Shown here: piece after piece, positions 1,254 through 47,608 of the stretch
Layout of the letters: every line of letters starts with the position of its first letter
Position numbering within the stretch: the stretch's first letter is position 1
NCBI GenBank assembly: GCA_965248195.1
Contig: CBDFIQ010000002.1
Coordinates: 1,952,001 to 2,016,000 of the forward strand
DNA: 64,000 bases
Reading direction: 5' to 3'
From: Longimicrobiales bacterium
Lineage (GTDB): Bacteria; Gemmatimonadota; Gemmatimonadetes; Longimicrobiales; Gaopeijiaceae
Made by a program: the position numbers and the translations under genes
The notes under the pieces: generated by a model
The model's input: only the letters and a program-made list of their open reading frames with translations
The model's database searches: none
What the model was told of the DNA's origin: nothing

Positions 1254-2629
1254 GGTCAAGTCCCGATTTGTGTGTAAAAGCGGAGGAAGCTCCTCGCCTT
1301 CGGCTAGGCTGCTTGGGCGACCTCCTGTTTCTGGAGGAGTGAGAGGTCGAGGTAACGCCGGTCGCCCCAGACGTGTGTGGTCCTGAGTGCGACGGCCGTG
1401 ATGAGCCTGAGGGCGCTGGCCCGGTCCGGGAAGGCGCCGGCGGCCTTGATCCTGCGTTTGATCTCGCCGTGCAGCCGCTCGAGGCTGTTGGTGGTACGCA
1501 GCCGGGGCCAGTGCGCCTCGGGGAACGCGTAGAACTGCGTCGCTGCCCCGAAGCCCCGCTCCAGGACCTCCACGGCCTCGGGCAGCTCCTTCTTCCAGCG
1601 TGCGCCGAACTCGCCCAGGAGCTTCTTCGCCTCGGCGAGTCCGGATGTCTGGAAGATCACCGAGACCTCACGCGCCACGCGCTTGCGTAGGCGGTGGGGG
1701 ACCCTCGCCCCCACATTACGCTGCAGATGGACCGTACACCTCTGACGGCGTGCCTCGGGCAGGAAGCGGCGGACCGCAGCTGCCAGGCCTGCGTGCTCAT
1801 CGGCGATCACGAGCTCGACACCGCCGAGGCCGCGGTCCTGGAGTTGCTCGAGGAGCTCCGACCAGCTCTGCTGCGACTCCTCAGCGCCCAGCGTGACGGC
1901 CAGGAGCCGTCGGTGACCCTCAGGGCCCACTGCATACGCCACGAGCGCACTCACGTTCTCGACTTTGCGGGCCCAGCGGGCGTCCAAGAACGTGGCGTCC
2001 AGGTACAGATAGGGGTGAGGCCCCTCGATCGGCGCACGGCGCAGCCCTTCCACGGCCTCGTCGAGCCGTTTTGCCACACGACTCACCGTCGAGCGCCCAA
2101 CACGCTCGCCCATCAGCGCCTCGGTGACGTCGCCCATCTTGCGCTGTGACACGCCGCTCACATACGCCTCGACCATCATCTCGTCGAGCTCGGGGCTCCT
2201 GCGCTGGTAGCGGCCGATCACGTCGGCCGGCGAACCGTTGTCCCGGCTCCGGGGCATGGCGACCTCGATCTGCCCCAGGCTCGTCAGCAGCCGCCTCAGG
2301 TATGTGCCGTTCCTATGGTCCTTCCGGCTTCCCACCCGCTCGAAGCGGCGTGCACCTACCATGGCCTTCAGCTCCTCTTCCAGCACCATCTCGAGCGTCA
2401 GCCGGATCGCGCCTTGAAACAGCTCGCGCAAATCATCGCGTAGCTCGTCTTGCGTGGCCCGACCGATCTCCACAATCTCTTGCATCGGAAGCTCCTCTCC
2501 GGTTCCGAGCCTGCTCTGCAGACCCGGACTCCCGGGTTCATGTGACAGTGAACAACAACAGAGGAGCTTCCGTTTTTCTTTCCCTCCTGTCCAGCTTATC
2601 CGCTTTTACACAAATCTAGGGACACTACC
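1254..2629 (-). mobile_element. IS256-family insertion sequence, copy 1
   Basis: Imperfect terminal inverted repeats GGTCAAGTCCCGATTTGTGTGTAAAAGCGG / GGTAGTGTCCCTAGATTTGTGTAAAAGCGG; 9-bp target duplication GGATGCGCA at 1245-1253 and 2630-2638. Confidence 0.95.
1304..2485 (-). CDS. IS256-family (Mutator-type DDE) transposase
   Basis: RNGTY, YLYLDAT, LVIADEH, QRCTVHL and RTTNSLERLHGEIKRR motifs. Confidence 0.95.
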   Translation of the reverse strand: MQEIVEIGRATQDELRDDLRELFQGAIRLTLEMVLEEELKAMVGARRFERVGSRKDHRNGTYLRRLLTSLGQIEVAMPRSRDNGSPADVIGRYQRRSPELDEMMVEAYVSGVSQRKMGDVTEALMGERVGRSTVSRVAKRLDEAVEGLRRAPIEGPHPYLYLDATFLDARWARKVENVSALVAYAVGPEGHRRLLAVTLGAEESQQSWSELLEQLQDRGLGGVELVIADEHAGLAAAVRRFLPEARRQRCTVHLQRNVGARVPHRLRKRVAREVSVIFQTSGLAEAKKLLGEFGARWKKELPEAVEVLERGFGAATQFYAFPEAHWPRLRTTNSLERLHGEIKRRIKAAGAFPDRASALRLITAVALRTTHVWGDRRYLDLSLLQKQEVAQAA

Positions 2630-4066: not shown

Positions 4067-4516
4067 ATGTTGGGACTGCGAGAGAGAATGGAAGAGAATG
4101 GTAGTGCCCCTGGAATCGGGGAGGCCAAGCGAAGCGCGGCAGCTCCTGCGGACCCGGAGGTAGTAGATAGGCCGCTACGCCGGCGGTTCAGTCCATCGTA
4201 CAAGCTGCGGATCGTCGAAGAAGCGGACCGGTGCACCGAGCCCGGCGAGGTGGGTCAGCTCCTGCGGCGCGAGGGCCTGTACTCGTCGCACCTGACGACG
4301 TGGCGCAAGGCGGCGCATAGCGGGTCGCTGAAGGCCCTGTCGAAGAAACGCGGCCGCAAGCCGGAGCGGAATCCGCTGGATGAGAAGGTACGCAAGCTGG
4401 AGCGGCAAAACGCACGGCTCGAGAATGAGCTCAGGAAGGCACACCTGATCATCGACGTGCAGGGAAAAGTTGCGGGGCTGCTGGGGATAAGCCTCGACGA
4501 CGGGACGAACTCTTGA
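4067..4516 (+). CDS. IS3-family transposase OrfA (HTH)
   Basis: RRRFSPSYKLRIV...LLRREGLYSSHLTTWR plus coiled coil; in-phase slippery heptamer G GGA AAA at 4462-4468 with an open -1 frame into orfB. Confidence 0.9.
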   Translation: MLGLRERMEENGSAPGIGEAKRSAAAPADPEVVDRPLRRRFSPSYKLRIVEEADRCTEPGEVGQLLRREGLYSSHLTTWRKAAHSGSLKALSKKRGRKPERNPLDEKVRKLERQNARLENELRKAHLIIDVQGKVAGLLGISLDDGTNS

Positions 4517-5520
4517 AGGCGGCCGATGAGCTGGCTAAGCACGTCGGTGTAAAACCGGCGTGCGCGGCTCTCGAGGTCTCCCGATCGACGTTCTACCGTC
4601 GTCGAGGCCCATCGACCGGGCAACGGCAGCCCCGCCCGACGCCCGCCCGGGCATTGAGCGAGACGGAACGAGGCGAGGTCTTCGACACGCTGTGTTCGGA
4701 GCGGTTCGTGGACCGCTCACCCGCCGAGGTGGTGGCCACGCTGCTCGACGAAGAGGTCTACCTGTGCAGCGAACGCACGATGTATCGTGTTCTGGCCTCC
4801 GAGGTGCCGGTTCAGGAACGCCGGGCGCAGCGCACCCATCCCGAGTACAAGAAGCCCGAGTTGATGGCCACGGCGCCGAACCAGGTGTGGTCCTGGGATA
4901 TCACGCGGCTACTCGGGCCGAAGAAGTGGAGCTATTACTACCTCTACGTCATCATGGACATCTACAGCCGCTACGTCGTGGGCTGGATGGTGGCGGACCG
5001 GGAGAACTCGGCCCTGGCCGGCCGGTTGATCCAGCAGAGCTGCCTGAAGCATGGCGTCCAGCCCCGGGTCCTGACCCTGCACTCGGATCGGGGAGCTCCA
5101 ATGACGAGCCAATGCACCGCTCAACTTCTCGCTGACCTCGGCGTGACTCGCTCGTTGAGCCGGCCTCAGGTGTCGGATGACAACCCGTTTTCCGAGGCTC
5201 AGTTCAAAACCTTGAAGTACCATCCCTCGTTTCCCGGGCGGTTCGGGGATCAGGGCCAGGCCAAGACGTTGTGTCGATCGTTCTTCCGCTGGTACAATGC
5301 CGAGCACCGCCATGGCGGTATCTCGATGCTAACCCCCGAGCAGGTCCACTTCGGGAACGCCGATCAGGTCATTGCCGGCAGGAAATCCGTGCTCCGCGAA
5401 GCATGGGCCGCTCATCCCGAACGCTTCGTCACAGGTGTGCCGAAGCCCAAACCGCTCCCGGAGGCCGTCTACATCAATCCTCCCATCCCTTCCCTCACCA
5501 CACAGGATATTGCTCTCTAA
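4513..5520 (+). CDS. IS3-family transposase OrfB (rve DDE integrase core)
   Basis: PNQVWSWDIT, LHSDRG and NPFSEAQFKTLK DDE motifs. Confidence 0.93.
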   Translation: MKAADELAKHVGVKPACAALEVSRSTFYRRRGPSTGQRQPRPTPARALSETERGEVFDTLCSERFVDRSPAEVVATLLDEEVYLCSERTMYRVLASEVPVQERRAQRTHPEYKKPELMATAPNQVWSWDITRLLGPKKWSYYYLYVIMDIYSRYVVGWMVADRENSALAGRLIQQSCLKHGVQPRVLTLHSDRGAPMTSQCTAQLLADLGVTRSLSRPQVSDDNPFSEAQFKTLKYHPSFPGRFGDQGQAKTLCRSFFRWYNAEHRHGGISMLTPEQVHFGNADQVIAGRKSVLREAWAAHPERFVTGVPKPKPLPEAVYINPPIPSLTTQDIAL

Positions 5521-6583: not shown

Positions 6584-7959
6584 GGTAGTGTCCCTAGATT
6601 TGTGTAAAAACGGATAAGCTGGACAGGAGGGAAAGAAAAACGGAAGCTCCTCTGTTGTTGTTCACTGTCACATGAACCCGGGAGTCCGGGTCTGCAGAGC
6701 AGGCTCGGAACCGGAGAGGAGCTTCCGATGCAAGAGATTGTGGAGATCGGTCGGGCCACGCAAGACGAGCTACGCGATGATTTGCGCGAGCTGTTTCAAG
6801 GCGCGATCCGGCTGACGCTCGAGATGGTGCTGGAAGAGGAGCTGAAGGCCATGGTAGGTGCACGCCGCTTCGAGCGGGTGGGAAGCCGGAAGGACCATAG
6901 GAACGGCACATACCTGAGGCGGCTGCTGACGAGCCTGGGGCAGATCGAGGTCGCCATGCCCCGGAGCCGGGACAACGGTTCGCCGGCCGACGTGATCGGC
7001 CGCTACCAGCGCAGGAGCCCCGAGCTCGACGAGATGATGGTCGAGGCGTATGTGAGCGGCGTGTCACAGCGCAAGATGGGCGACGTCACCGAGGCGCTGA
7101 TGGGCGAGCGTGTTGGGCGCTCGACGGTGAGTCGTGTGGCAAAACGGCTCGACGAGGCCGTGGAAGGGCTGCGCCGTGCGCCGATCGAGGGGCCTCACCC
7201 CTATCTGTACCTGGACGCCACGTTCTTGGACGCCCGCTGGGCCCGCAAAGTCGAGAACGTGAGTGCGCTCGTGGCGTATGCAGTGGGCCCTGAGGGTCAC
7301 CGACGGCTCCTGGCCGTCACGCTGGGCGCTGAGGAGTCGCAGCAGAGCTGGTCGGAGCTCCTCGAGCAACTCCAGGACCGCGGCCTCGGCGGTGTCGAGC
7401 TCGTGATCGCCGATGAGCACGCAGGCCTGGCAGCTGCGGTCCGCCGCTTCCTGCCCGAGGCACGCCGTCAGAGGTGTACGGTCCATCTGCAGCGTAATGT
7501 GGGGGCGAGGGTCCCCCACCGCCTACGCAAGCGCGTGGCGCGTGAGGTCTCGGTGATCTTCCAGACATCCGGACTCGCCGAGGCGAAGAAGCTCCTGGGC
7601 GAGTTCGGCGCACGCTGGAAGAAGGAGCTGCCCGAGGCCGTGGAGGTCCTGGAGCGGGGCTTCGGGGCAGCGACGCAGTTCTACGCGTTCCCCGAGGCGC
7701 ACTGGCCCCGGCTGCGTACCACCAACAGCCTCGAGCGGCTGCACGGCGAGATCAAACGCAGGATCAAGGCCGCCGGCGCCTTCCCGGACCGGGCCAGCGC
7801 CCTCAGGCTCATCACGGCCGTCGCACTCAGGACCACACACGTCTGGGGCGACCGGCGTTACCTCGACCTCTCACTCCTCCAGAAACAGGAGGTCGCCCAA
7901 GCAGCCTAGCCGAAGGCGAGGAGCTTCCTCCGCTTTTACACACAAATCGGGACTTGACC
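6584..7959 (+). mobile_element. IS256-family insertion sequence, copy 2 (inverted relative to copy 1)
   Basis: Same ends and identical transposase as copy 1; flanks ATGACGGGA / CTGAGGCGC are not duplicated. Confidence 0.95.
6728..7909 (+). CDS. IS256-family transposase
   Basis: Protein identical to 1304-2485. Confidence 0.95.
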   Translation: MQEIVEIGRATQDELRDDLRELFQGAIRLTLEMVLEEELKAMVGARRFERVGSRKDHRNGTYLRRLLTSLGQIEVAMPRSRDNGSPADVIGRYQRRSPELDEMMVEAYVSGVSQRKMGDVTEALMGERVGRSTVSRVAKRLDEAVEGLRRAPIEGPHPYLYLDATFLDARWARKVENVSALVAYAVGPEGHRRLLAVTLGAEESQQSWSELLEQLQDRGLGGVELVIADEHAGLAAAVRRFLPEARRQRCTVHLQRNVGARVPHRLRKRVAREVSVIFQTSGLAEAKKLLGEFGARWKKELPEAVEVLERGFGAATQFYAFPEAHWPRLRTTNSLERLHGEIKRRIKAAGAFPDRASALRLITAVALRTTHVWGDRRYLDLSLLQKQEVAQAA

Positions 7960-7967
7960 CTGAGGCG

Positions 7968-9413
7968 CTAGGGTAGCATAGCCCGAAGTACCCTGAGTCT
8001 GCCTCTCACGCGTTTGGTGCCTGTAACGACCGAGCCGTGGGAGGTGGGTTCGGGGTTGTCCACCATGGCCCGAATCTCGTCGGCTTCGAAGATGAGCCGT
8101 CCGAGTTTATGGGCTTCAGCGAGACGGAGTGCTTCGTCCGCGGCTTTCCGAGCACGATCCGCCCGACGGAGAATCAGTTCGTCCCGAGCGCGATCCAGCA
8201 AGAGTTGGGTCCACACCTCAACTTGTATACTGGCACTAGCGGACTTAAGGATCTTTGTCGCTCCCCTGTACGTTTCCACGTCGTTACGTCGGGCGGCCAC
8301 CTGGGCCAACCCGCTCGTGGCCGTAGCTCGGACGTCGATGTCCCTCTGGCCCGAACCCAACACGATCTCATAGGCATCTTCCGCAGCGCCCAGATCACCG
8401 CATTCGAGCAGTACGTTTCCCAGCACGACTAGCGTGCCAAAGCGGTCGACGTGATCTACTGGGTAGGCGTCGTACGCCAACAACCCGAACTTGGCGGCGG
8501 GAGCTAATGACCCCACTTCCTGTTCCACCAGCATCAGCCCGAAGTAAGCCAGCGGAATACCCAGCGCTCCTGGCGGCGCAATTCTGAGGGCTTCTTCGTA
8601 TGTGGTCCGAGCCAGCGGCATGTTTCCCTGCATCCGGTGGACACTCCCCCGTCCGGTGAGGATAGCCGCCGCCAAGCTCTGGTCCGTCAGTTTCCGGGCT
8701 GCCCCTTCCGCGACCTTGTACGCTGCCAACGCATCCTCGAGGCGCCCCAGCCTCCGTAGCGCCCGGGCTTGGTACCATGCCGCGCGCACCCCATTCTCAG
8801 CCAAGCCCATCGCTAGACACGCCGAAGCCGCGACCTCATAGAGATTCAGGGCGCTTTCGTAGTTGCCGGACGCCTCACATTCCTCTGCTTGGGCAAACAG
8901 GGTGCCTGTGGTTTCTCTCTGATCCCACAGCGACGCGTCCTCTGTGTCGATCAATACGCTGATGGCTACGTAGCGCGACTCGTGGAAGAGTTGTCCCACA
9001 TCTCGGCCGAGGTTCAGCTGCCGGACGCCCGAGAGAACCAAGGACCACCGGCGACCATGCTTCGCCGCGATCATGTAAGCGAGACTCTTCCTCGGGCGTG
9101 CCCGCCCGGTGCCGACAGTGCCCTCAAAGGCGGCGGCCAATCCCCGAGCCGCGAGGTCTGCGCCGAACGTCACACGCGGTTCATCCCTGACGGCATCGAC
9201 CACGATATGAGGGAACGGTCCGGCCGATCCATCAATGGGTGACCACACGAGGGCGCAGCGATCCGCGCGTGTAGCTTCTAGGAGTTCGACCAACTGCGGG
9301 ACAAGACGCCCGCGAACGGGGTCCATCGAGTATAGAGCCTGCGCGTCGCGCATACGCCTCTCACGTTCTGGGCCGGGAAGGAAAGTTCGAATATCAATAA
9401 CATCACGCGACAT
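7968..9413 (-). CDS. Tetratricopeptide-repeat protein with an uncharacterised N-terminal domain
   Basis: Repeated TPR-like helices (ARALRRLGRLEDALAAY; GSVHRMQGNMPLARTTYEEAL; LGNVLLECGDLGAAEDAY). Confidence 0.75.
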   Translation of the reverse strand: MSRDVIDIRTFLPGPERERRMRDAQALYSMDPVRGRLVPQLVELLEATRADRCALVWSPIDGSAGPFPHIVVDAVRDEPRVTFGADLAARGLAAAFEGTVGTGRARPRKSLAYMIAAKHGRRWSLVLSGVRQLNLGRDVGQLFHESRYVAISVLIDTEDASLWDQRETTGTLFAQAEECEASGNYESALNLYEVAASACLAMGLAENGVRAAWYQARALRRLGRLEDALAAYKVAEGAARKLTDQSLAAAILTGRGSVHRMQGNMPLARTTYEEALRIAPPGALGIPLAYFGLMLVEQEVGSLAPAAKFGLLAYDAYPVDHVDRFGTLVVLGNVLLECGDLGAAEDAYEIVLGSGQRDIDVRATATSGLAQVAARRNDVETYRGATKILKSASASIQVEVWTQLLLDRARDELILRRADRARKAADEALRLAEAHKLGRLIFEADEIRAMVDNPEPTSHGSVVTGTKRVRGRLRVLRAMLP

Positions 9414-9609
9414 GCATGATCCCGCACGGAGACCCCTCGTCGGTCGGCAATCTAGGGCCGCACGAAAATTACGCTAGTGTCGGTGCGTTTGTAATAATTT
9501 TAGTCGCGGCCCCGTTTCTTGGGCATGGAGTACCGGTCGGCATACAATCGTCGCGGGTCACTTGGTTTCACCGCCCGCTATCCCCACGAGCGGCCAAACG
9601 GAGGACCCC

Positions 9610-9723
9610 ATGATCCGAGCCATTGGATTCTTAGCAGCATTATTCGTGCCGCTCATTTCCGCGGCTCAGGCCGCCGAGATGTTAAGAACAGAGTTGGCCA
9701 AGTGCGCCGTCGTGGACGGTGAA
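9610..9723 (+). pseudogene. N-terminal fragment of a secreted protein (TagO/VasI-like)
   Basis: GGAGG RBS, signal peptide MIRAIGFLAALFVPLISAAQA, then LAKCAVVDGE, after which the sequence stops looking coding. Confidence 0.4.
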
Positions 9724-9970
9724 AGTTCCGGAGCCCACCCGGGGGCAGGACTCCTCCCTCTCCCGGCCTACCCCGCCAACGTCTCGGATTCTTGCCGCAA
9801 GCCGTTCAGCTATCTCCCGATCTTCGGTCCTGGATCGCCCCCAAAATTGCCCAGGTTGGGACGATCTCGGAGGCGGAAATGGACGCCGAAGGAGACCGGA
9901 AAAAGGACCTCTCAGAGAAGACCCGTGAAGAGATCCAGGACGACCTCGACAACAAGAGGCTTTGGTCACC

Positions 9971-10192
9971 CTAGCTCTCGATCACAAACAGGGGATCGCC
10001 CCCCCCGATCTCCTCACCGACAGAGATATAGACCTCTTTGATCGTGCCGCTCGCCGGGGCCATGATAGGCATCTCCATCTTCAAGGCCTCGATGTCGCAC
10101 ATGCGGTCTCTCTCCTCGACTTGGCTCCCCTTTTCGACATGAACCCGGATCACCCTTCCCCTCATGGGGGCCTTCACAATCTGTTCAGCCAT
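9971..10192 (-). CDS. Stand-alone biotin carboxyl carrier protein
   Basis: 73-aa biotinyl fold: APMRG...V..G..V...IEALKME.PI.AP..G.I; biotin-Lys motif variant EALKM. Confidence 0.9.
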   Translation of the reverse strand: MAEQIVKAPMRGRVIRVHVEKGSQVEERDRMCDIEALKMEMPIMAPASGTIKEVYISVGEEIGGGDPLFVIES

Positions 10193-10233
10193 CCCCTCTC
10201 ACACTATAAGCATCACCCGCTAAACGAAGACGC

Positions 10234-11385
10234 CTAGCCTAGAACACTCAAAAAGATCCCAGCGACAACAGCAGAACCTACAACACCAGCCACATTTGGT
10301 CCCATGGCATTCATCAGCAGGAAGTTGCTCGGGTTGGCTTCCTGCCCCATTCGCTGCACTACCCTGGCTGACATTGGCACGGCCGAGACACCACAGGCAC
10401 CTATCATCGGATTGAAGGGTTCTTTGCTAACTAGCTTCATCAGCTTCCCCATAAGCACACCCCCGGCTGTCCCACAAGCAAAGGCGAAAAGACCCAAAGC
10501 CAGAACCATAAGGGTTTCCGGGCGCATTACTAGCTCGGCAGGCATACTTGCTCCGATAGAAAGCATGAGGAGTATAGTGATTGAGTTGATAAAGGCATTC
10601 TGTGCCGTGTCAGAAAGCCTTTCTACTGCACCGCTTACCCGGAGTAAGTTTCCAAACATAAACATTCCCACGATGGGTGCGCTGCGAGGTACCAGCAATA
10701 TGATCAGAATGAGGCATACTATGGGGAACAAGATCTCTTCTGTTTTTGACACCTCGCGTAACTCTGGCTCCATATAGATCTCTCTCTCCCTTTTTGATGT
10801 GAGAGCTCTAATTATGGGAGGTTGAATGATGGCTACCATTGCCATGTAAGAATATGCGGCCACCGCCGTGATCCCCATTATCTCAGGCGCAAGCCGGGAG
10901 GTGACGTAGATCGTTGTGGGACCGTCAGCACCGCCAATGATTGCGATGGCAGCCGCTTCCTCCAATCCAAACTCGGCGATACCAAAGTGCCCCAAAGCCA
11001 AAGCGCCGAGGAAGGCAACAATTATTCCTACTTGTGCCGCTGCCCCAAGCAAAAAGAGCCGCGGACGGGCTATGAGTGGTACGAAGTCCGTCAACGCACC
11101 AAGACCAACGAAGATTAGCAGAGGCAGGACTGTATATCTGAGGAGACCAAATTCAATCAATATTCCCAAGAGACCGGCAGTCCCAATTTCGCCTCCCGCC
11201 TCCTGAGGCTGAACCAAGAGTCCAGTGCCAGGGAGATTAGCCAAGATCAATCCCATCCCGATAGGGAGGAGTTCATAGGGCTCGAAGTCCTTGACAATAG
11301 CGAGATAGATGAAGGTGAGCCCCACACATATTAAGACGACATGCCCCCAGGTAAGGTCGGCAAAGCCGGTTTGAAATCCTAGCAT
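10234..11385 (-). CDS. oadB: Na+-translocating decarboxylase beta subunit
   Basis: FEPYELLPIG, IIGGADGPTTIY, AAYSYMAMV, GVSAVPMSARV and AMGPNVAGVVGSAV motifs. Confidence 0.95.
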   Translation of the reverse strand: MLGFQTGFADLTWGHVVLICVGLTFIYLAIVKDFEPYELLPIGMGLILANLPGTGLLVQPQEAGGEIGTAGLLGILIEFGLLRYTVLPLLIFVGLGALTDFVPLIARPRLFLLGAAAQVGIIVAFLGALALGHFGIAEFGLEEAAAIAIIGGADGPTTIYVTSRLAPEIMGITAVAAYSYMAMVAIIQPPIIRALTSKREREIYMEPELREVSKTEEILFPIVCLILIILLVPRSAPIVGMFMFGNLLRVSGAVERLSDTAQNAFINSITILLMLSIGASMPAELVMRPETLMVLALGLFAFACGTAGGVLMGKLMKLVSKEPFNPMIGACGVSAVPMSARVVQRMGQEANPSNFLLMNAMGPNVAGVVGSAVVAGIFLSVLG

Positions 11386-11402
11386 CTTGTTCCAGTCAAC
11401 TC

Positions 11403-11567
11403 CTAAGTTCGTTCTCTTTCTTGCCCGCCTTCAGCCTTGCTGGCAGCGACTCTGCCAACTATCACCCCGACGAGCCAGATAGCTAGAGCCAGCATGATTA
11501 GGACGGCAAAGACTAGGACAAAGCCAAAGCCACTAATCTGCGCAGCGAGCCCCCAGTCTATTTCCAT
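11403..11567 (-). CDS. oadG: Na+-translocating decarboxylase gamma/delta-type small membrane subunit (54 aa; absent from the ORF track)
   Basis: Translated by hand: MEIDWGLAAQISGFGFVLVFAVLIMLALAIWLVGVIVGRVAASKAEGGQERERT*; single TM helix with an OadG-like GF.LVF.VL..L pattern, lying between the alpha and beta genes. Confidence 0.85.
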   Translation of the reverse strand: MEIDWGLAAQISGFGFVLVFAVLIMLALAIWLVGVIVGRVAASKAEGGQERERT

Positions 11568-11593
11568 ATCTCTAACTCAATAACTCGATCAGG

Positions 11594-13018
11594 TTATGAG
11601 CGGAGGTCGCTCTTTTCCCTGAGGGTCAGAAAGTCCTTGGCCTGCATGGGGTAGAGTATCCCCATGAGGATATCCTCGTCGCTCTTTGCCAGAGGGCCGA
11701 GTTCTTTCACCGCTCTGTCCCAGTCCTCCGGATCGGCGAGGTCCCCTGCCCTTGCCGAGTAATCGGGAGACTTGTCGCCCATTATCTTAGTCACGAGCTC
11801 CTCGCTCACCGGGCCCGGTGGCCGACCGTATTTACCCGCGACATAATCCATGACCTCTTGCGTGATGATTTGGTATCGCTCTCCCATCAGCACGTTGAAT
11901 ACCGCTTGGGAGCCGACGATCTGGCTCGTGGGAGTCAGGAGCGGCGGATAGCCGAGGTCCTTCTCCACATTCGGACTTTCTTTCAGGGCCGCCTCCATCA
12001 GATCCATCCGGCCAGCCTCTTTCAACTGCGCGACCATGTTGGAGATCATCCCGCCGGGCATCTTGTGCTTGAGCACCTCGGCGTTGACACCAGCGTACTT
12101 CGTTGCGTGTTCCGAATACTTCTCCCCGATGTCCCGTGTGATCCTGGTAGGCTCCTCGAGTAGCTTCAGGTCTATGCCCGTGTCGAAGGGTGTGTCCTTG
12201 AGTGCAGCGATCATCGTTTCGGTCGCGGGGTGTGAAGAGCCGAAAGCCAGCGGGCTCAGCACCGTATCGATCATATCCACCCCGGCGAGTAGGGCCATCA
12301 GGTGGCACATGCTGGAGGCCCCGGTCATATCGTGAGTGTGGAGGAGGACCGGCATTTCCTTGGCACGGTCCTTCATGCCCTTGATGATCCTGTAGGCATC
12401 GAAGGGCATGATGATACCCGTTGCGTCCTTCAGCGATAGCCAGTCTGCCCCGATCTCCAACACTTGCTCCGCATACTCCATCCACTTCTCAAGGGTGTGC
12501 ACCGGGCTGATGGTGTAGTTCACCTCCACGTGGGCCTCTCCCCCGAACTCCTTGACCGCCTTGGCGGCCACCTCGACGTTCCGGAAGTCGTTGGTGGCCT
12601 CGAACACCCGGAAGACGGTAATGCCGTTCTTCACCGCCTTCTCGACGAACTTGCGGACGATTCGGTCCGGATAGGGCTTATAGGCGAGGATGTGCTGGCC
12701 CCTCAAGAGCATCTGAAGTTTGGTGTTGGGCATGACCTCCTTGATTCGTTTGAGCCTCTCCCAAGGATCTTCCTTCAGGTATCTCAAGGCGGCGTCGAAG
12801 CTGGCCCCTCCCCATACCTCCACCGCATAGAAGCCACACTTGTCCAGGGCCGCGCAGAGGGGGAGAAGGTCATCCGTGGAAACCCTAGTGGCGAGTTTGC
12901 ATTGCTGGCCATCCCTCGGGGTCAGATCGGTAATCTTGATCCTTCTAGAGCCGATCGGTGCGCTGAGCAGTGTTCGAAGATCTTGATCCAGTCTCTCGAA
13001 GGATTCATTCAGATCCAT
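11594..13018 (-). CDS. Biotin-dependent carboxyltransferase (OadA/PycB superfamily), CfiA-like; no biotinyl domain
   Basis: ITDLTPRDGQQCKLATR, EVWGGA, SLKDATGII, LHTHD, PGGMISNM and PPLLTPTSQIVG motifs; strong GGAGGAGG RBS. Confidence 0.92.
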   Translation of the reverse strand: MDLNESFERLDQDLRTLLSAPIGSRRIKITDLTPRDGQQCKLATRVSTDDLLPLCAALDKCGFYAVEVWGGASFDAALRYLKEDPWERLKRIKEVMPNTKLQMLLRGQHILAYKPYPDRIVRKFVEKAVKNGITVFRVFEATNDFRNVEVAAKAVKEFGGEAHVEVNYTISPVHTLEKWMEYAEQVLEIGADWLSLKDATGIIMPFDAYRIIKGMKDRAKEMPVLLHTHDMTGASSMCHLMALLAGVDMIDTVLSPLAFGSSHPATETMIAALKDTPFDTGIDLKLLEEPTRITRDIGEKYSEHATKYAGVNAEVLKHKMPGGMISNMVAQLKEAGRMDLMEAALKESPNVEKDLGYPPLLTPTSQIVGSQAVFNVLMGERYQIITQEVMDYVAGKYGRPPGPVSEELVTKIMGDKSPDYSARAGDLADPEDWDRAVKELGPLAKSDEDILMGILYPMQAKDFLTLREKSDLRS

Positions 13019-13032
13019 GGGTCGCCTCCTCC

Positions 13033-13473
13033 CTACGCTGACGTGACGGTCCCTTTCAAGGAACCGACTTCGTACTCACAGGTTATGGGGGCCACCCGAC
13101 TCGCCATAACGGCAATGCTGCAGGTGCGGGTCAGCGCTTCGTGAATGGCGTCCCGGACATCCTTGTCGGTGAGGTCTGGCCCTTTCATGCGGAACTTCAG
13201 CATGATCTTCGTATAGACCTTTGGATAATCTGGCCGGCGCTCCCCGTCTGTTTCCACCTCAACATCTTCCACGTGTTTGCCGGCCTGGTGGAGTGCCTCA
13301 TAGGCATGGATTCCCATGCACGCCGCGATAGAGTACATAAGAAGGGCTGGTGGCCTGAATCCCCTGCCTTTCCCACCCACATGCGCGGCGGCGTCAATCG
13401 GCAACTCTAGGTCAAGGTCTTCACCTTTGCCGACAAAATGGAAATCCGTCTTCTGGTTGACTCTTACCTTCAT
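13033..13473 (-). CDS. OsmC/YhfA-family protein
   Basis: GFRPPALLMYSIAACMG and TCSI two-Cys pattern; R.PDYPKVYTKI. Confidence 0.85.
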   Translation of the reverse strand: MKVRVNQKTDFHFVGKGEDLDLELPIDAAAHVGGKGRGFRPPALLMYSIAACMGIHAYEALHQAGKHVEDVEVETDGERRPDYPKVYTKIMLKFRMKGPDLTDKDVRDAIHEALTRTCSIAVMASRVAPITCEYEVGSLKGTVTSA

Positions 13474-13488
13474 GGTCTAACCCTCCCT

Positions 13489-14454
13489 TCACTTAGGAAG
13501 CACCACAGAAAGTGGGGGCTCACCCGTCGCCACACGCCGGATGTTCTCCCACGCAAAACGGGACCGGCGGAACCAGCCCTCGTATCCATGCCCCGCGACA
13601 TGGGGTGAAAGGACGACATTGTCCTGCTGCACGAAAGGATGATCGGCGGGAAAGGGTTCCGTGCAAAAGACATCCAGCCCCGCTCCAGCGATGCGATTCT
13701 CCCTCAAGGCCTCGACCAGGGCCTCCTCGTCCACCGCGGGCCCGCGGCTGGTGTTGAGTAGGACGGTGGTGGGCTTCATCATTCCCAGCGCTTCCCGCCC
13801 GATGATCCCCTCGGTCTCCGGGGTGGCGGGGACATGCAGGCTGATGATGTCTGCCTCCCGCAGTAACTCCTCCAGAGAGACCCGGCGGGCCCCTAGATCT
13901 TTCTCTATCTCGGGGGCGGACACGACGTCGTAGTATATGACCCGGGCCTCGAACGCCGCCAAGCGCCGGGCTACTTTCCGGCCGATGTTCCCCGCCCCAA
14001 CCAGGCCCAGGGTTTTGCCCGCCACCTCAAAAGTGTTGAACCCCGAAATCGGCTCCCGCCACCGTCCCTCCCGCATCGCCCGGTCACACTGGATGAGACG
14101 CTTGTAAAGAGCCAAGAGGAGGGCAACAGTGTGCTCGGCCACCGACCAAGCGTTGGCCCCGCCGTTGGTAGCCACCGGGATACCCAACTCGGCGGTAAGG
14201 CCCAGGTCTATCTTGTCATAGCCGGCGGTCAAGAGTTGGATCAGGCGCAGCGTCTTGGCCGCTCGCAGGAGGTCCTCAGAGATCTGGGCCGGGTGGAGGA
14301 CCAGGAAGTCCGCCTCCCGCATCAAGGGGAGTTTCTCCTCGTCGCTGACACGACGGGGTAGCCAGGTCAGCTCAAACCCCTCGCGAGGCGCCTCCTCCGA
14401 GAAGATCTCCGCCACCCGCTCGCTTTGACCATTGATGAAAAACACCCTGGACAT
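13489..14454 (-). CDS. NAD-dependent D-isomer-specific 2-hydroxyacid dehydrogenase
   Basis: SVAEH, GAGNIG, YYD, NTSRG, LDVFCTEP and SPHVAG catalytic motifs. Confidence 0.93.
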   Translation of the reverse strand: MSRVFFINGQSERVAEIFSEEAPREGFELTWLPRRVSDEEKLPLMREADFLVLHPAQISEDLLRAAKTLRLIQLLTAGYDKIDLGLTAELGIPVATNGGANAWSVAEHTVALLLALYKRLIQCDRAMREGRWREPISGFNTFEVAGKTLGLVGAGNIGRKVARRLAAFEARVIYYDVVSAPEIEKDLGARRVSLEELLREADIISLHVPATPETEGIIGREALGMMKPTTVLLNTSRGPAVDEEALVEALRENRIAGAGLDVFCTEPFPADHPFVQQDNVVLSPHVAGHGYEGWFRRSRFAWENIRRVATGEPPLSVVLPK

Positions 14455-14513
14455 CTTCGTGCCTCCTCGAATCGCCGACCCTTTATGGTTCCTCCCACGA
14501 ATCGGCGCGCCGT

Positions 14514-14542
14514 GACCTAGTCGGATTCCGGGCGCATGTCAA
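14514..14542 (-). promoter_or_regulatory. Candidate sigma70 promoter for the dehydrogenase-decarboxylase operon
   Basis: Perfect TTGACA (14537-14542), 17-nt spacer, weak -10 TAGGTC; GAGGAGG RBS before 14454. Confidence 0.4.
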
Positions 14543-14577
14543 GGGAGCCGTCAGCCTCGATACGGCGCGGCAGGTGA

Positions 14578-14721
14578 TGTTTCTGGCACCATCACGCTGT
14601 CTGCTCCCGAGGCACTCTTCCGAAGAGCAACCAGAAATTCTGGAAGGACAAGTTCCACCAGAATCGGGCTCGAGACCAACGGAAAGTGGATGCTCTCCGC
14701 GAATCTGGCTTCCGCGTCATG
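14578..14721 (+). pseudogene. vsr: Internal fragment of very-short-patch repair endonuclease
   Basis: Hand translation CFWHHHAVCSRGTLPKSNQKFWKDKFHQNRARDQRKVDALRESGFRVM matches the Vsr signature; both ends missing. Confidence 0.8.
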
Positions 14722-14730
14722 GGGTCCACT

Positions 14731-14847
14731 TCAGGTCACGCCCAGCTCCGTTCGGCGAAGCAGTTGAGCGTTGAGCTCTACGATGATCGTGCTGAGAGAC
14801 ATGAGTACCGCCCCTAGGGCCGGGTGTAACAGCACGCCCCAGGCCAA
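14731..14847 (-). pseudogene. C-terminal fragment of a heavy-metal P1B-type ATPase (CopB-like)
   Basis: [32 protein letters not shown] matches the last TM helix motif (MSLSTI.V..NA.LL). Confidence 0.75.
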
Positions 14848-14997
14848 TCGCTCTAAGGGTTTCGGAGTTCGTAGGGTGAGGCACTGTTCGACCGGATACA
14901 TGAGCGGTCGTTGAGCCACAGCAAGCCTCGCCTCGGCTGCCGCTATCCTCGCCTTCGTAACCTCGTGTCGGGCACGGGCCGTCGAGGTCCTTGCGAA

Positions 14998-16011
14998 TCA
15001 CCCCAGCGCCCGCACCAGGGCATCGCTGAACTCGACCGTCGAGGCCTGGCCCCCCATGTCCCTCGTCCTTACCTCGCCCGCGCGAACCACGTTGTCGAGC
15101 GCCGCCCGGATGCGGGCGCCCACGTCGGGCTGACCGACATGCTCGAGAAGCAGACACGCCGACAGGAGGAGTCCAGTCGGGTTGGCGATCCCCTGCCCCG
15201 CGATATCCGGAGCCGACCCGTGGACCGCCTCGAACACGGCCGCGTCCTCTCCGATGTTGCCGGCCGGAGCGAACCCGAGACCACCTACGAGCCCCGCCAT
15301 CAGGTCGCTCAGAATGTCCCCTAACATGTTCTCCATCACGAGAACGTCGAACTGGCGCGGCTCCAGGACAAGAGCCATGGCGGTCGCGTCGATGATGCGG
15401 TCCTCCCATGCGATGTCCGGATACTCCGGGGCCATCTCACGGCCTACGTCGAGAAAAAGCCCCTGCGTGTACTTCAGGATATTGGCTTTATGCGCCAGGG
15501 TGACTCTCTTGCGGCCATTCGCGCGCGCGTACTCGAAGGCGTATCGGACGATCCGCTCGGCGCCGAAACGAGTCACGATCATTACGGATTCTGCGGCAGC
15601 CCGCGGGTCGCCCTCCAAGCCGATGTAGTGCTCGACGCCGACGTACAGACCCTCGGTGTTCTCCCGAATCAACACCAGATCGATGTCTTCGTAGCGCCCG
15701 CCCGGAACGATGGTTCGCACGGGTCGGACGTTGGCGTAGAGGTCGAACTCCTTCCGGAGCGCGACGTTGATGGAGCGGAAGCCCGAGCCCATGGGCGTGG
15801 TGAGCGGGCCTTTGAGCGACAACCCGTTGCGGCGGATCGAGTCGAGGGTGGCGTCCGGAAGCGGCGTATTGACTCGCTCGAGCGCCTCCAGGCCAGCCAC
15901 CTGCATATCGTACTCGAGGTCCGCACCCGACGCCCGGAGAACACTCAGCGTCGCGTCGGTGACTTCTGGACCGATCCCGTCTCCCGGGATCACGGTGACG
16001 GTTTTGGTCAT
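14998..16011 (-). CDS. idh: Isocitrate/isopropylmalate dehydrogenase family, probably NAD-dependent isocitrate dehydrogenase
   Basis: IPGDGIGPEV, KGPLTTP..SGFRSINVALR, IRENTEG, HKANILK, GDILSD and FEAVHGSAPDIAG motifs. Confidence 0.85.
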   Translation of the reverse strand: MTKTVTVIPGDGIGPEVTDATLSVLRASGADLEYDMQVAGLEALERVNTPLPDATLDSIRRNGLSLKGPLTTPMGSGFRSINVALRKEFDLYANVRPVRTIVPGGRYEDIDLVLIRENTEGLYVGVEHYIGLEGDPRAAAESVMIVTRFGAERIVRYAFEYARANGRKRVTLAHKANILKYTQGLFLDVGREMAPEYPDIAWEDRIIDATAMALVLEPRQFDVLVMENMLGDILSDLMAGLVGGLGFAPAGNIGEDAAVFEAVHGSAPDIAGQGIANPTGLLLSACLLLEHVGQPDVGARIRAALDNVVRAGEVRTRDMGGQASTVEFSDALVRALG

Positions 16012-16701: not shown

Positions 16702-17056
16702 TGGAGGCGGCGGGAGTCGAACCCGCGTCCGCAAATGGATCCTACAGAGCCTCTACGTGCGTAGCGTCACTCAATGTTTCGCCCGGGGCGGCGAGCGAGC
16801 AACCGACCCCCAAGCTAGCTACCTGAACATCTCATCTCTGGCCCGGGCAGCACCGGCCAGCGACCAGCCCGACTCATCGACGTCTCGGAGACCCGCCTCG
16901 GGCAGGCAGATCAGGAAACGGACTACGAACCGAAGTTACGCAGCCAATGCCAGTTCATTGTTGGCAATTAAGGTTTTCCCAGGGGTTTTACGAGGTCCCG
17001 GGAACCTCGGCACGCTACTCCATATTCACCAAACGCGTCGAAGCCGTGACGCCCCC
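16702..17056 (-). ncRNA. ssrA: tmRNA
   Basis: 5' GGGGGCGTCACGGCTTCGAC; 3' GCGGGTTCGACTCCCGCCGCCTCCA; tag reading frame ANNELALAA* at 16965-16936; 3' CCA not encoded. Confidence 0.97.
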
Positions 17057-43101: not shown

Positions 43102-43109
43102 CGGATCTC

Positions 43110-43664
43110 TCAATCCCCTTCTCTCTCCGAAAATTTTTCCGAAACCTCGCCGGGTGGGAGCATATCCATCAGGACTTCGTCCTTCTCGACCGTCTGGCCT
43201 GCGGCGACGTGGATTACGCCGACGCGGCCTGCGACCGCGGCGGTGAGCGAATTCTCCATCTTCATGGCCTCGACGACGAGGAGACCGCCTCCCGCCTCCA
43301 CCAACTCTCCTTCTTTCACCTCCACCTTTACGACCAGCCCCGGCATTGGGGCCCGCACGGGCGTCGGGCCCTTGACGGCCAATCCCGCGGAGCTCATGTC
43401 GCGCATCGCCTTCGCTCGGTCGTCCAACACGTCGGCTCGATACCGCCGCCCCCGATGCTGGAGAGCCCACACGCCGGAACCGCCGCGCTCGGCCAGAACC
43501 GTATGGGATGCCCCGCCCACGAGAAAGGAATAGAGCTTCGGGCTCACCAATTCGGGGCCACGGGCCTCCATCCGGTCCCCGTCGATCCGAACTCCCTCAG
43601 CGTCGATTGCCACCTCGAAGGTGGTGTCGCCCACGGTGACATGATAACGCACAGCCCTACCCAC
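43110..43664 (-). CDS. Biotin carboxyl carrier subunit of acyl-CoA carboxylase
   Basis: APMPGLVV and EAMKMEN motifs. Confidence 0.92.
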
Positions 43665-46457: not shown

Positions 46458-46557
46458 GGGCCGCTCAGGATCCTCGGGAAGGGCGTCAGGGCCGACGGGC
46501 CCAGTCTTGTCCGGTGGAGCCTGAAGTTTGGTAGAGGGGTGTGGGGGTGTAAACCCC

Positions 46558-47502: not shown

Positions 47503-47608
47503 CGTAGTCCCTCCATCTTCTAACCCCGCTTCACGACGGACCGCCCGAAGCTATTCCTGAGATGACCTGAGGCGGGCGGAGCGTTGCCTGCGACGTCACC
47601 ACGGGACG

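What the first reader, a model, noticed from the sequence alone, without database searches (positions are those of the whole stretch)
9971..14454. Candidate new Na+-pumping decarboxylase: CfiA-like carboxyltransferase coupled to OadB/OadG and a free biotin carrier
Seen: six co-oriented, tightly spaced intact genes (2-hydroxyacid dehydrogenase, OsmC, carboxyltransferase, OadG, OadB, biotin carrier). OadB retains GADGPT, YSYMA and GPNVAG..GS, and the operon has no biotin carboxylase. Known: Na+-translocating decarboxylases are characterised for oxaloacetate, methylmalonyl-CoA, glutaconyl-CoA and malonate, and OadA/PycB carry RDAHQSLxATR and IKDMAG. This protein has ITDLTPRDGQQCKLATRV, WLSLKDATGIIMPF, LSPLAFGSSHPATE and PMQAKDF. 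From memory, these match the 2-oxoglutarate carboxylase large subunit CfiA of Aquificae, which works with an ATP-dependent biotin carboxylase (CfiB) in the reductive TCA cycle. Inference: a membrane complex that decarboxylates oxalosuccinate or a related beta-carboxy-2-oxoacid while pumping Na+, or that uses the Na+ gradient instead of ATP to carboxylate 2-oxoglutarate. I know of no description of such a system.
Basis: partly seen in the sequence, partly recalled or inferred. Interest (0 to 1): 0.92.

Follow-up and report, generated by a model that had tools for sequence, protein, structure and literature searches.

The report
Sodium-pumping isocitrate oxidation cassette
A six-gene cassette found in several bacterial phyla joins the carbon-transfer half of a CO2-fixing Krebs-cycle enzyme to a membrane sodium pump, which suggests an undescribed way to couple the isocitrate-to-2-oxoglutarate step to an ion gradient instead of ATP.

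Summary
Six intact, co-oriented genes lie at 9971-14454 (-). The carboxyltransferase groups with Aquificota CfiA (2-oxoglutarate carboxylase; 64-70% identity; support 100/100), not with OadA/PycB (41-47%). It keeps CfiA-specific K41, A199 and K319 but lacks the biotin domain. It is linked to oadG, oadB and, where the contig reaches, a free biotin carrier in 11 genomes of four phyla, with four OadB lineages; none has a CfiB ortholog. OadB keeps all six residues shown to be needed in Salmonella OAD. The cassette lies beside or inside isocitrate dehydrogenase and TCA operons in 9 of 11 genomes. The NAD-type D-2-hydroxyacid dehydrogenase occupies icd's position in a Dehalococcoidia cfiBA operon whose genome gave no IDH hit. 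Best reading: isocitrate is oxidised to oxalosuccinate, whose carboxyl passes via biotin to OadBG, which releases CO2 and pumps Na+. The energetics are near equilibrium, so ATP-free, Na+-driven carboxylation is the main rival. Substrate, direction and OsmC's role are inferred, not shown. No description was found in eight literature searches (open-access library only) or in this scan's earlier findings.

The parts
13489..14454 (-). NAD-type D-2-hydroxyacid dehydrogenase of a distinct subfamily; proposed isocitrate:NAD+ oxidoreductase / oxalosuccinate reductase
   Evidence: PF02826/PF00389, below every NCBIfam equivalog cut-off. R237, E266, H285, Asp176 after the Rossmann strand, and K41, H54, H289, R296, R297, R307 are conserved in linked copies. 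Same 3 of 301 phylum genomes as the CT. Sits between acn and osmC-cfiB-cfiA in L027/L028.
13033..13473 (-). OsmC/YhfA-family two-cysteine protein; ortholog of the gene upstream of cfiB in Aquificota; role unknown (epimerase/tautomerase or thiol redox helper are hypotheses)
   Evidence: PF02566. 51-66% identical to Aquificota/Acidulodesulfobacterales neighbours of cfiB. C52, C118, H56, E59, K35, R37, R40, R79 invariant in 46 of 46 rows.
11594..13018 (-). CfiA-clade 2-oxoacid carboxyltransferase without biotin domain
   Evidence: Trees. 18 of 21 CfiA-diagnostic columns kept; R35, D36, Q39, R106, K197, H227, H229 present; T362 invariant. Model pLDDT 87, TM 0.88-0.90 to 5KS8/1RQB/2NX9.
11403..11567 (-). 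OadG-like single-helix membrane subunit, 54 aa with a short cytoplasmic tail
   Evidence: PF04277 30.5 bits over cut-off 27; TIGR01195 below cut-off. Similar small hydrophobic ORFs lie next to OadB in L004, L018, L019, L161, L162, L171, L189.
10234..11385 (-). OadB-family Na+-translocating carboxybiotin decarboxylase (beta subunit)
   Evidence: TIGR01109 480 bits, cut-off 191. E35, D154, R256, N263, S334, N364 = Salmonella E40, D203, R304, N311, S382, N412. Named nearest relatives are mostly Dehalococcoidia/Chloroflexota proteins, 71-77%; one at 74% lies in an MmdA-BCCP-OadG-OadB operon.
9971..10192 (-). Free 73-aa biotin carboxyl carrier (E-A-L-K38-M)
   Evidence: PF00364. 62-99% identical to the carriers of other linked loci, 30-45% to CfiA, PycB, OadA and MMD-type carriers.
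9965..14573 (-). Extent of the transferred cassette
   Evidence: 98.5% nucleotide identity to L001 over this span against 87% for L001's upstream flank, which maps elsewhere in the genome; 94-97% to L002, L094, L095, L096 with the same 3' boundary where reached.
14998..16011 (-). Adjacent NAD-type isocitrate dehydrogenase-like gene, probably co-acquired
   Evidence: PF00180, best PRK08997 457 bits, below cut-off 510. IDH substrate motifs and HGSAPDIAG (NAD assignment from recalled motif). Not found in 4 of 4 relatives searched. 98% identical copy directly after the carrier gene in L094.
9905..9924 (-). Terminator-like hairpin 47 nt after the last gene
   Evidence: Consensus match only (11 found, 5.5 expected in shuffles).

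Best explanation
The cassette encodes a Na+-coupled, two-enzyme version of the isocitrate dehydrogenase step. (1, inferred) The NAD-type D-2-hydroxyacid dehydrogenase oxidises (2R,3S)-isocitrate to oxalosuccinate without decarboxylating it. (2, inferred from CfiA orthology) The carboxyltransferase moves the beta-carboxyl of oxalosuccinate to biotin on the free carrier and releases 2-oxoglutarate. (3, inferred from intact OadB residues) OadB/OadG decarboxylates carboxybiotin and exports Na+. Net: isocitrate + NAD+ + nNa+(in) -> 2-oxoglutarate + CO2 + NADH + nNa+(out). It derives from ATP-dependent 2-oxoglutarate carboxylase by loss of CfiB and the fused biotin domain, and by recruitment of a membrane decarboxylase, at least in part from methylmalonyl-CoA-decarboxylase-type operons. 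In this host (citrate synthase, SucA, no ATP-citrate lyase hit) it most likely runs oxidatively beside ordinary IDH, as the energy-saving branch, but near equilibrium. Shown: genes, phylogeny, residues, linkage, absence of a CfiB ortholog. Not shown: any activity.
For: CT in one clade with CfiA, 100/100 (111-row quick tree, SH-aLRT 100). The anchor is L059, whose BC is top hit to H. thermophilus CfiB 7KCT and whose CT is named 2-oxoglutarate carboxylase large subunit. Aquificota genomes carry a separate PycB at 44-46%. K41/A199/K319 are invariant in 17 of 17 CfiA-group and 15 of 15 OadB-linked rows, against L or I / M or Q / Q in 22 outgroup rows. Of 159 loci, 49 are CfiB-linked, 17 OadB-linked and none both. 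No CfiB ortholog in 11 of 11 OadB-linked genomes, with 2 positive controls. The OadB-linked CTs form one clade (99/99) yet pair with four OadB lineages at 47-59% to the window's. An IDH gene lies within about 6 kb in 8 of 11 genomes and in the same TCA run in a ninth; in Methylomirabilota the subunits are interleaved as acn-oadG-oadB and bccp-icd-mdh-fum-sdh. In G004 the dehydrogenase fills icd's slot, both PF00180 hits are LeuB, and PF03971 is not found. G000 has SucA and citrate synthase and no PF16114 or CitF hit. Oxalosuccinate decarboxylation is about -27 kJ/mol. RNA-library contigs of 4 studies cover parts of the cassette, nearly all of it in two.
Against: No assay exists. Hosts keep ordinary IDHs, and G000 has an NAD-type IDH next door that would short-circuit the pump if it is a normal decarboxylating enzyme. 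Isocitrate -> oxalosuccinate is uphill by about +16 kJ/mol and the intermediate is labile. The estimated chemical drive (-17 to -32 kJ/mol) overlaps the pump cost (17-26 kJ/mol for 2 Na+ out/1 H+ in), so the direction is not settled (assumed concentrations). The host's ATP synthase c subunit lacks the Na+-type motif, and NqrA and MrpE were not found in G000, so the Na+ gradient would not drive ATP synthesis directly. Most close CT relatives (17 Binatia-type genome loci and 66 of 80 metagenome loci) show none of the partners nearby; 5 such genomes lack the OsmC and dehydrogenase orthologs. G005 and G816 gave no SucA hit. The CT differs from the CfiA group at F105L, D140E, F196L and S364T. The G004 argument rests on one genome of unknown completeness; G011 and G012 lack even LeuB. 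A Mariprofundus enzyme labelled OGC also carboxylates pyruvate, so labels do not fix specificity.
Confidence: 0.54

Rival explanations
1. Same chemistry, opposite physiological direction: inward Na+ flow through OadBG carboxylates biotin, the CT makes oxalosuccinate from 2-oxoglutarate, and the dehydrogenase reduces it to isocitrate with NADH. This is an ATP-free 2-oxoglutarate carboxylase, used for reductive flux or, together with NADP-IDH, as a Na+-driven NADH-to-NADPH cycle.
For: The ancestor CfiA carboxylates, and OadBG replaces CfiB one-for-one. Decarboxylase pumps are reversible (PMC13147460 and PMC7274780 passages). The energetics overlap, and marine Na+ favours influx. NADP-IDH genes lie beside or near the cassette in G005, G013, G056, G715, G813. 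G005 and G816 gave no SucA hit.
Against: No ATP-citrate lyase hit in 11 of 11 OadB-linked genomes (citryl-CoA synthetase/lyase not tested, and partial PF00285 hits in G005 and G816 are unresolved). All 11 already have PntB. G000 has SucA and citrate synthase.
Confidence: 0.22
2. The pump acts on oxalosuccinate or a close homologue, but the dehydrogenase has another job: it reduces 2-oxoglutarate to D-2-hydroxyglutarate, or oxidises an unusual isocitrate stereoisomer or homologue that OsmC epimerises. The cassette would then be a catabolic add-on rather than a TCA bypass.
For: The family is promiscuous and the closest solved relatives are phosphoglycerate and glyoxylate dehydrogenases. PrpF and aconitase remnants flank the Terriglobia copies. 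Hosts keep ordinary IDHs. OsmC has two invariant cysteines and a basic patch.
Against: The dehydrogenase sits in icd's slot in korAB-acn-X-osmC-cfiB-cfiA-mdh-fum of G004, which gave no IDH hit. No transporter or catabolic gene recurred among the cassette neighbours that I annotated.
Confidence: 0.12
3. An ordinary oxaloacetate decarboxylase Na+ pump whose alpha chain happens to descend from CfiA and has reverted to, or is promiscuous for, oxaloacetate/pyruvate.
For: A split OadA + OadG + carrier + OadB operon is a known layout. All general catalytic residues are shared. T364 matches most PycB/OadA rows. One enzyme labelled OGC accepts pyruvate.
Against: K41, A199, K319, E161, H163, W193, M231 are all of CfiA type in 15 of 15 rows. 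CitF was not found in 5 of 5 carriers tested. The recurring neighbour is IDH. OsmC is kept from the cfi operon.
Confidence: 0.08
4. The CT and carrier work with a biotin carboxylase or acyl-CoA carboxyltransferase encoded elsewhere (ATP-dependent carboxylase or transcarboxylase), and OadBG is a passenger or serves another CT.
For: G000 has three biotin carboxylases and an acyl-CoA carboxyltransferase-like ORF. In Binatia-type genomes the CT stands alone and OadB lies in an MMD-type operon.
Against: In the window the nearest BC has its own carrier ORF, and another is the N-terminus of single-chain pyruvate carboxylase. The OadBG link is kept across four OadB lineages and several gene orders.
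Confidence: 0.04

Closest known systems
2-Oxoglutarate carboxylase CfiAB (EC 6.4.1.7) plus non-decarboxylating ICDH of Hydrogenobacter thermophilus / Aquificota
   Same: CT clade, diagnostic residues, the adjacent osmC gene, and the split of the IDH step into carboxyl transfer and redox half-reactions.
   Different: No CfiB ortholog and no fused biotin domain; a membrane OadBG instead of ATP; a D-2-hydroxyacid dehydrogenase in place of ICDH; hosts without an ATP-citrate lyase hit.
Oxaloacetate decarboxylase Na+ pump OadGAB (EC 7.2.4.2)
   Same: Same CT fold (TM 0.88 to 2NX9), OadB with Na+ and decarboxylation residues, a gamma anchor; split forms with a free carrier exist.
   Different: CT only 42-44% identical to the three OadA references and in another clade; no fused carrier; gamma of 54 aa ends before the 61-84 tail that binds alpha in Salmonella; context is IDH/TCA, and CitF was not found.
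Methylmalonyl-CoA, glutaconyl-CoA and malonate decarboxylase Na+ pumps (EC 7.2.4.3-5)
   Same: Free small biotin carrier and beta subunit. The window's nearest genome-placed OadB with a visible CT, and the sister group of the Methylomirabilota OadB, both lie in MmdA-type operons.
   Different: Those use acyl-CoA or acyl-ACP carboxyltransferases of another fold (recalled); here the CT is a 2-oxoacid TIM-barrel enzyme.
Transcarboxylase 5S/12S/1.3S (EC 2.1.3.1)
   Same: Stand-alone 2-oxoacid CT and a free carrier, no ATP.
   Different: No 12S-type gene in the cassette; a membrane decarboxylase takes its place; Met186 is replaced by Ala199.

Membership tests
Na+-translocating biotin-dependent decarboxylases (EC 7.2.4.-) | Beta subunit of the OadB family | tested here: met
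   TIGR01109 480 bits against cut-off 191; PF03977
Na+-translocating biotin-dependent decarboxylases (EC 7.2.4.-) | Residues needed for Na+ binding and carboxybiotin decarboxylation (E40, D203, R304, N311, S382, N412 in Salmonella) | tested here: met
   All six in the window; five invariant in 19 of 19 linked OadBs, N311 in 18 of 19
Na+-translocating biotin-dependent decarboxylases (EC 7.2.4.-) | Gamma/delta membrane anchor, biotin carrier and a carboxyltransferase encoded together, without biotin carboxylase | tested here: met
   PF04277 over cut-off (TIGR01195 under); PF00364 with Lys38 in ALKM; no BC in the cassette
Na+-translocating biotin-dependent decarboxylases (EC 7.2.4.-) | Na+-dependent, avidin-sensitive decarboxylation with Na+ transport | not testable with these tools
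   Needs reconstitution
Oxaloacetate decarboxylase OadA (EC 7.2.4.2) | CT in the OadA/PycB group with pyruvate-type residues | tested here: not met
   Separated by a 100/100 branch; K41, A199, K319 instead of L, M, Q; below TIGR01108, PRK12331 and PRK14040 cut-offs, two of which include the carrier domain
Oxaloacetate decarboxylase OadA (EC 7.2.4.2) | Alpha association domain bound by the gamma C-terminal tail | tested here: inconclusive
   CT ends at residue 474 and gamma at 54, so both parts look absent by length; not tested structurally
2-Oxoglutarate carboxylase (EC 6.4.1.7) | CT orthologous to CfiA | tested here: met
   The H. thermophilus CfiA sequence itself was not in hand; Hydrogenobacter sp. 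Uz 6-8 (L059) stood in.
2-Oxoglutarate carboxylase (EC 6.4.1.7) | CfiB biotin carboxylase and a biotin domain fused to CfiA | tested here: not met
   Best BC at most 53% identical in 11 of 11 genomes against 64% and 100% in controls; CT of 474 aa ends in a stop. G000 is 91.8% complete.
2-Oxoglutarate carboxylase (EC 6.4.1.7) | Specificity for 2-oxoglutarate/oxalosuccinate | not testable with these tools
   Inferred from residues and context only
D-isomer-specific 2-hydroxyacid dehydrogenases | Arg-Glu-His catalytic set and NAD-type Rossmann motif | tested here: met
   R237, E266, H285, GAGNIG 153, D176; the NAD reading of D176 is a recalled rule
Oxalosuccinate reductase / non-decarboxylating ICDH (EC 1.1.1.41 type) | IDH/IPMDH (PF00180) family membership | tested here: not met
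   13489-14454 is PF02826/PF00389; proposed as an analogue, not a member
Transcarboxylase (EC 2.1.3.1) | Second, acyl-CoA carboxyltransferase (12S) in the operon | tested here: not met
   None among the six genes. In Binatia-type genomes MmdA sits with the carrier and OadBG, apart from the CT.

The most novel reading that the evidence does not exclude
A fifth kind of decarboxylase Na+ pump, and the first ion-pumping form of the isocitrate dehydrogenase step of the Krebs cycle. An unrelated D-2-hydroxyacid dehydrogenase and a CfiA-derived carboxyltransferase hand the carboxyl to OadBG. The same four to six proteins either conserve the energy of isocitrate oxidation as a Na+ gradient in respiring bacteria or, run backwards, fix CO2 into isocitrate without ATP. 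The module is a 4.6-kb cassette moving between phyla in the ocean.
Probability: 0.65. Interest if true: 0.9.

Novelty: new variant of a known kind. Interest (0 to 1): 0.8.

Why it matters
A 2021 review lists four substrates for decarboxylation phosphorylation and places these pumps in anaerobically grown microbes (PMC8085960). This cassette points to a fifth substrate, oxalosuccinate, normally an enzyme-bound intermediate. It would put an ion pump on a core TCA reaction that textbooks treat as non-conserving. It also proposes a new enzyme for the isocitrate/oxalosuccinate redox step from an unrelated family. Run in reverse, it is an ATP-free C5-to-C6 carboxylase. A 2025 preprint names the lack of a mesophilic 2-oxoglutarate carboxylase as the block for its synthetic CO2-fixation cycles, and this clade outside Aquificota supplies candidates. 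All genes are small and can be tested in a laboratory E. coli strain.

Tried and rejected
Complex prediction of CT with two OsmC chains gave no verdict (score 0.00, mark 0.32, controls not folded); it says nothing for or against binding.

Idea that the cassette replaces a missing transhydrogenase: weakened, because PntB is present in 11 of 11 carriers.

Idea that the dehydrogenase generally replaces IDH: holds only for G004; the carriers checked keep IDH genes.

Class- and phylum-wide tests had little power because the CT clade is rare: 1 of 301 Dehalococcoidia-class genomes, 3 of 201 Methylomirabilota, 2 of 121 Binatia-class. The dehydrogenase hit 2 of 351 Acidobacteriota, one of them a 54% outlier with no cassette gene within 18 kb.

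No att-type direct repeat bounding the cassette among the 20 largest of 55 families shown. No sigma-70 promoter excess. The structure model gave the fold but no pocket coordinates.

Uncovered flanks (8254-9669, 14626-14979) in the RNA contigs are not evidence, since those strains may lack them. The paralog column was mis-framed and ignored.

Aoshima and Igarashi 2008 is not held. The K20140 search returned unrelated grant numbers except PMC13147460. PMC5706468's cfiA mention is unrelated. The only earlier scan note returned (e1-5638615, an archaeal transcarboxylase triad) did not bear on this.


Full report
Observation. The six genes are present, intact and co-oriented on the - strand with gaps of 14-41 nt, and every quoted motif is in place. 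Pfam and NCBIfam name them a D-2-hydroxyacid dehydrogenase, an OsmC-like protein, a pyruvate/oxaloacetate-type carboxyltransferase (CT) without biotin domain, a 54-aa OadG, an OadB and a 73-aa biotin carrier. The host genome (4.86 Mb, 91.8% complete) is closest by sequence to records labelled Longimicrobiales/Gemmatimonadales. The span 9965-14573 is 98.5% identical to L001, whose upstream flank is only 87% identical and maps elsewhere in G000. The CT occurs in 3 of 301 genomes of the phylum and was not found in the one same-genus genome searched. This is a horizontally moving cassette. It lies 2.1 kb past the 3' end of the tmRNA gene and next to IS elements.

The CT is a CfiA ortholog. The best solved relatives are PycB, OadA and transcarboxylase 5S, with the same fold (model pLDDT 87, TM 0.88-0.90). 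Aquificota proteins, however, are 64-70% identical against 41-47% for PycB/OadA. The anchor is Hydrogenobacter sp. Uz 6-8 (L059): its upstream biotin carboxylase is the top hit to H. thermophilus CfiB (7KCT), and its CT is named 2-oxoglutarate carboxylase large subunit. The three Aquificota genomes tested each hold a second CT at 44-46%, the PycB. A 111-row quick tree and a 48-row careful tree both separate the CfiA clade, window included, from PycB/OadA (SH-aLRT 100; 100/100). The 48 rows were my selection, with the longest branches left out. Of 21 columns invariant in 17 CfiA-group rows and nearly absent from 22 outgroup rows, the window keeps 18; one of them, position 472, is an alignment-end artefact, and F105, F196 and S364 are not kept. 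K41 (outgroup L/I), A199 (M/Q) and K319 (Q) are invariant in all 15 OadB-linked rows. A199 aligns to Met186 of 5S. That these positions enlarge the pocket and bind the distal carboxylate of 2-oxoglutarate is my inference; the place of Met186 in the pocket is recalled.

The link to OadBG recurs and excludes CfiB. I took the best 80 of 580 genome matches (79 loci) and the best 80 of 576 metagenome matches. Counting OadB at over 40% identity and CfiB at over 60%, the genome loci split into 8 OadB-linked, 49 CfiB-linked and 22 with neither. The metagenome loci split into 9 OadB-linked, 5 with OsmC or dehydrogenase only (four on contigs under 2.8 kb) and 66 with none. No locus has both. L013's distant MadB-like gene (30%) was not counted, and some metagenome loci duplicate genome loci (L158 matches L019). 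With this gives 11 genomes: four Gemmatimonadota, three Terriglobia, three Methylomirabilota, and one 3.7-kb contig of a bin labelled Planctomycetota, whose assignment is uncertain. In none of the 11 does any biotin carboxylase exceed 53% identity to CfiB, while controls give 64% and 100%; most are incomplete MAGs. The OadB-linked CTs form one clade (99/99), but their OadBs fall in four lineages, the other three 47-59% identical to the window's. The Terriglobia CT is 92-93% identical while its OadB is 58-59%. The Methylomirabilota OadB is sister to OadBs of carrier-oadG-oadB-mmdA operons. The window's OadB is closest to named Dehalococcoidia/Chloroflexota proteins, and one at 74% lies in an MmdA operon. 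I read this as repeated recruitment of a membrane decarboxylase, which argues that the CT needs one. All six residues shown to matter in Salmonella OadB (PMC7274780, passages and section 9) are present. The gamma subunit ends before the tail that binds alpha in Salmonella, so the carrier may shuttle between a soluble CT and the membrane (inference). A split layout with a free carrier is itself known.

The context is the isocitrate/2-oxoglutarate step. An IDH-family gene lies within about 6 kb in 8 of 11 genomes, and in the same TCA run 11 kb away in G013; L002 shows none in 13.9 kb and L003 is too short. The IDHs are of different types: NAD-type, dimeric NADP and monomeric. In Methylomirabilota the subunits are interleaved with the cycle: acn-oadG-oadB on one side, carrier-icd-mdh-fum-sdh on the other. 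In G056 icd follows the carrier gene in the same direction. The window's own NAD-type IDH was not found in 4 relatives, and a 98% copy follows the cassette in L094. OsmC precedes cfiB in 41 of the 49 CfiB-linked loci (read; 7 of the other 8 have under 1.9 kb upstream of the CT), typically as icd-osmC-cfiB-cfiA. It keeps two cysteines and a basic patch in 46 of 46 rows. In Dehalococcoidia L027/L028 the order is korAB-acn-dehydrogenase-osmC-cfiB-cfiA-mdh, continuing with fum in L028. In that genome (G004) both PF00180 hits are LeuB and monomeric IDH is not found. This is the main reason to read the dehydrogenase as an isocitrate/oxalosuccinate oxidoreductase. It rests on one genome of unknown completeness; G011 and G012 are uninformative. 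The (2R) centre of natural isocitrate matches the D-specificity of the family (established stereochemistry, recalled). The enzyme has the catalytic R237/E266/H285, an NAD-type D176 and several conserved basic residues.

Direction. From Table 1 of PMC13147460 (passages), oxalosuccinate decarboxylation is about -27 kJ/mol and isocitrate -> 2-oxoglutarate + CO2 + NADH is -11.7 at 1 mM. With my assumed cell concentrations this becomes -17 to -32 kJ/mol, against 17-26 kJ/mol for exporting 2 Na+ and taking up 1 H+. The system is therefore poised, and such pumps are reversible. For oxidation: G000 has SucA and citrate synthase, no carrier genome has a PF16114 hit (0 of 11, control positive), and all 11 have PntB. 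For reversal: G005 and G816 gave no SucA hit, citryl-CoA synthetase/lyase was not tested, and seawater Na+ favours influx. G000's ATP synthase c subunit reads E-G-A, without the Na+-type motif (motif rule recalled). NqrA was found in 0 of 5 carriers and MrpE in 1 of 5, not in G000. The benefit would thus be Na+ export and membrane potential rather than Na+-driven ATP synthesis. CitF was found in 0 of 5.

Expression. Of 24 runs listed, 17 are on record as RNA. In the 4 laid, from 4 studies, two labelled seawater, contigs at 90% identity or more cover nearly the whole cassette in X1 and X2 and parts of it in X8 and X9. Single contigs span carrier-oadB, oadB-oadG-CT, CT-osmC and osmC-dehydrogenase. 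These are assemblies: they show presence in RNA libraries, not strand, level or a single transcript.

Results against a simple story. The most numerous close relatives (Binatia-type, 73-79%) have the CT alone. Five such genomes lack the OsmC and dehydrogenase orthologs (0 of 5), and three tested lack CfiB. All 5 carry an OadB, in the 4 read in full as carrier-oadG-oadB-mmdA. These counts include G008, which is unpublished and may not be published without its depositors' permission; L016 is from the same genome. This state could be in-trans sharing of the pump or a transcarboxylase, and I did not resolve it. L110 has dehydrogenase-osmC-CT with no oadB in 7 kb downstream. Hosts keep ordinary IDHs, which would compete. 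An enzyme labelled OGC from Mariprofundus also carboxylates pyruvate (PMC12183294, passages).

Comparison and novelty. By components it is a member of the Na+-translocating biotin decarboxylases. It is not an oxaloacetate decarboxylase by clade or residues, and not a 2-oxoglutarate carboxylase for want of CfiB, though it works on the same chemistry by inference. A 2021 review names four such pumps (PMC8085960, passages). A 2026 survey treats OGC as restricted to thermophiles and OAD as the only pump on these cycles (passages); its supplements were not read. Eight searches found no description of an oxalosuccinate pump, a cfiA-oadB link or OsmC with OGC. The library lacks most subscription papers, and the Aoshima papers were seen only as citations. 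bioRxiv 2025.11.12.688011 (passages; supplements closed) reports no mesophilic OGC found. This scan's earlier findings hold no match.

Verdict. The feature is real, conserved across phyla and apparently undescribed: a new variant of a known kind, with a new predicted substrate and a new place in metabolism. I put 0.54 on oxidative Na+ pumping and 0.22 on Na+-driven carboxylation, so about 0.76 on a Na+-coupled isocitrate/2-oxoglutarate step. Other dehydrogenase roles get 0.12, an ordinary oxaloacetate pump 0.08 and in-trans partners 0.04. Interest 0.8.

Noticed in passing
L026-L028 (G004:C19); proteins P0076, P0086: Dehalococcoidia carry a complete cfiB-cfiA (fused biotin domain) operon with osmC and, in L027/L028, the same dehydrogenase in place of icd. 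G004 also has citrate synthase, KorAB and a PycB-type CT, with no IDH or PntB hit. A Bathyarchaeia-labelled CfiA (P0086) and dehydrogenase (P0381) list the same longest contig length. These are candidates for non-Aquificota, possibly mesophilic OGC; growth temperature was not established.
   Followed up: partly
L006-L016, L020-L025, L174-L177: Binatia-type genomes hold a stand-alone CfiA-clade CT, often between an MFS gene and fpg, plus a separate carrier-oadG-oadB-mmdA operon. Two CTs may share one biotin carrier and pump, or form a methylmalonyl-CoA:2-oxoglutarate transcarboxylase. Includes unpublished G008.
   Followed up: partly
L031-L079: A highly conserved two-cysteine OsmC gene lies upstream of cfiB, usually after icd, in 41 of 49 CfiB-linked loci; no paper linking it to OGC was found.
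   Followed up: partly
L094:149-6637: The cassette, the NAD-type IDH and the short stretch after it occur in a circularly permuted order relative to the window, as expected from an excised circle or tandem repeat.
   Followed up: no
L004:5954-6111 and 12297-12486; L017:12324-12416: Short remnants (54-79%) of the aconitase type found in the Dehalococcoidia operon flank the Terriglobia cassette, beside PrpF and an NAD-type IDH. IDH genes in L005 and L017 appear in pieces (frameshift or assembly error).
   Followed up: no
window 14731-14919 (-): 62-codon remnant that reads like the C-terminus of a heavy-metal P-type ATPase (label from recall, not tested), between the IDH gene and the cassette.
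   Followed up: no
window 1304-2485 (-), 6728-7909 (+), 4067-5520 (+), 16702-17056 (-): Two copies of an IS256-like transposase with the same protein sequence in inverted orientation and an IS3-like element (labels from recall), a TPR protein at 7968-9413, and tmRNA with tag ANNELALAA; the cassette sits between tmRNA and this IS-rich stretch.
   Followed up: no
window 41533-49159 (-): Cluster of acyl-CoA carboxyltransferase, biotin carboxylase, RNA methyltransferase, biotin carrier and methylmalonyl-CoA mutase ORFs (labels read from translations); a possible second donor for the OadBG pump.
   Followed up: partly
protein P0199 (674 aa): A divergent CfiA-clade member (57%) that keeps K41, A199 and K319 but lies on a long branch; context unknown.
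   Followed up: no
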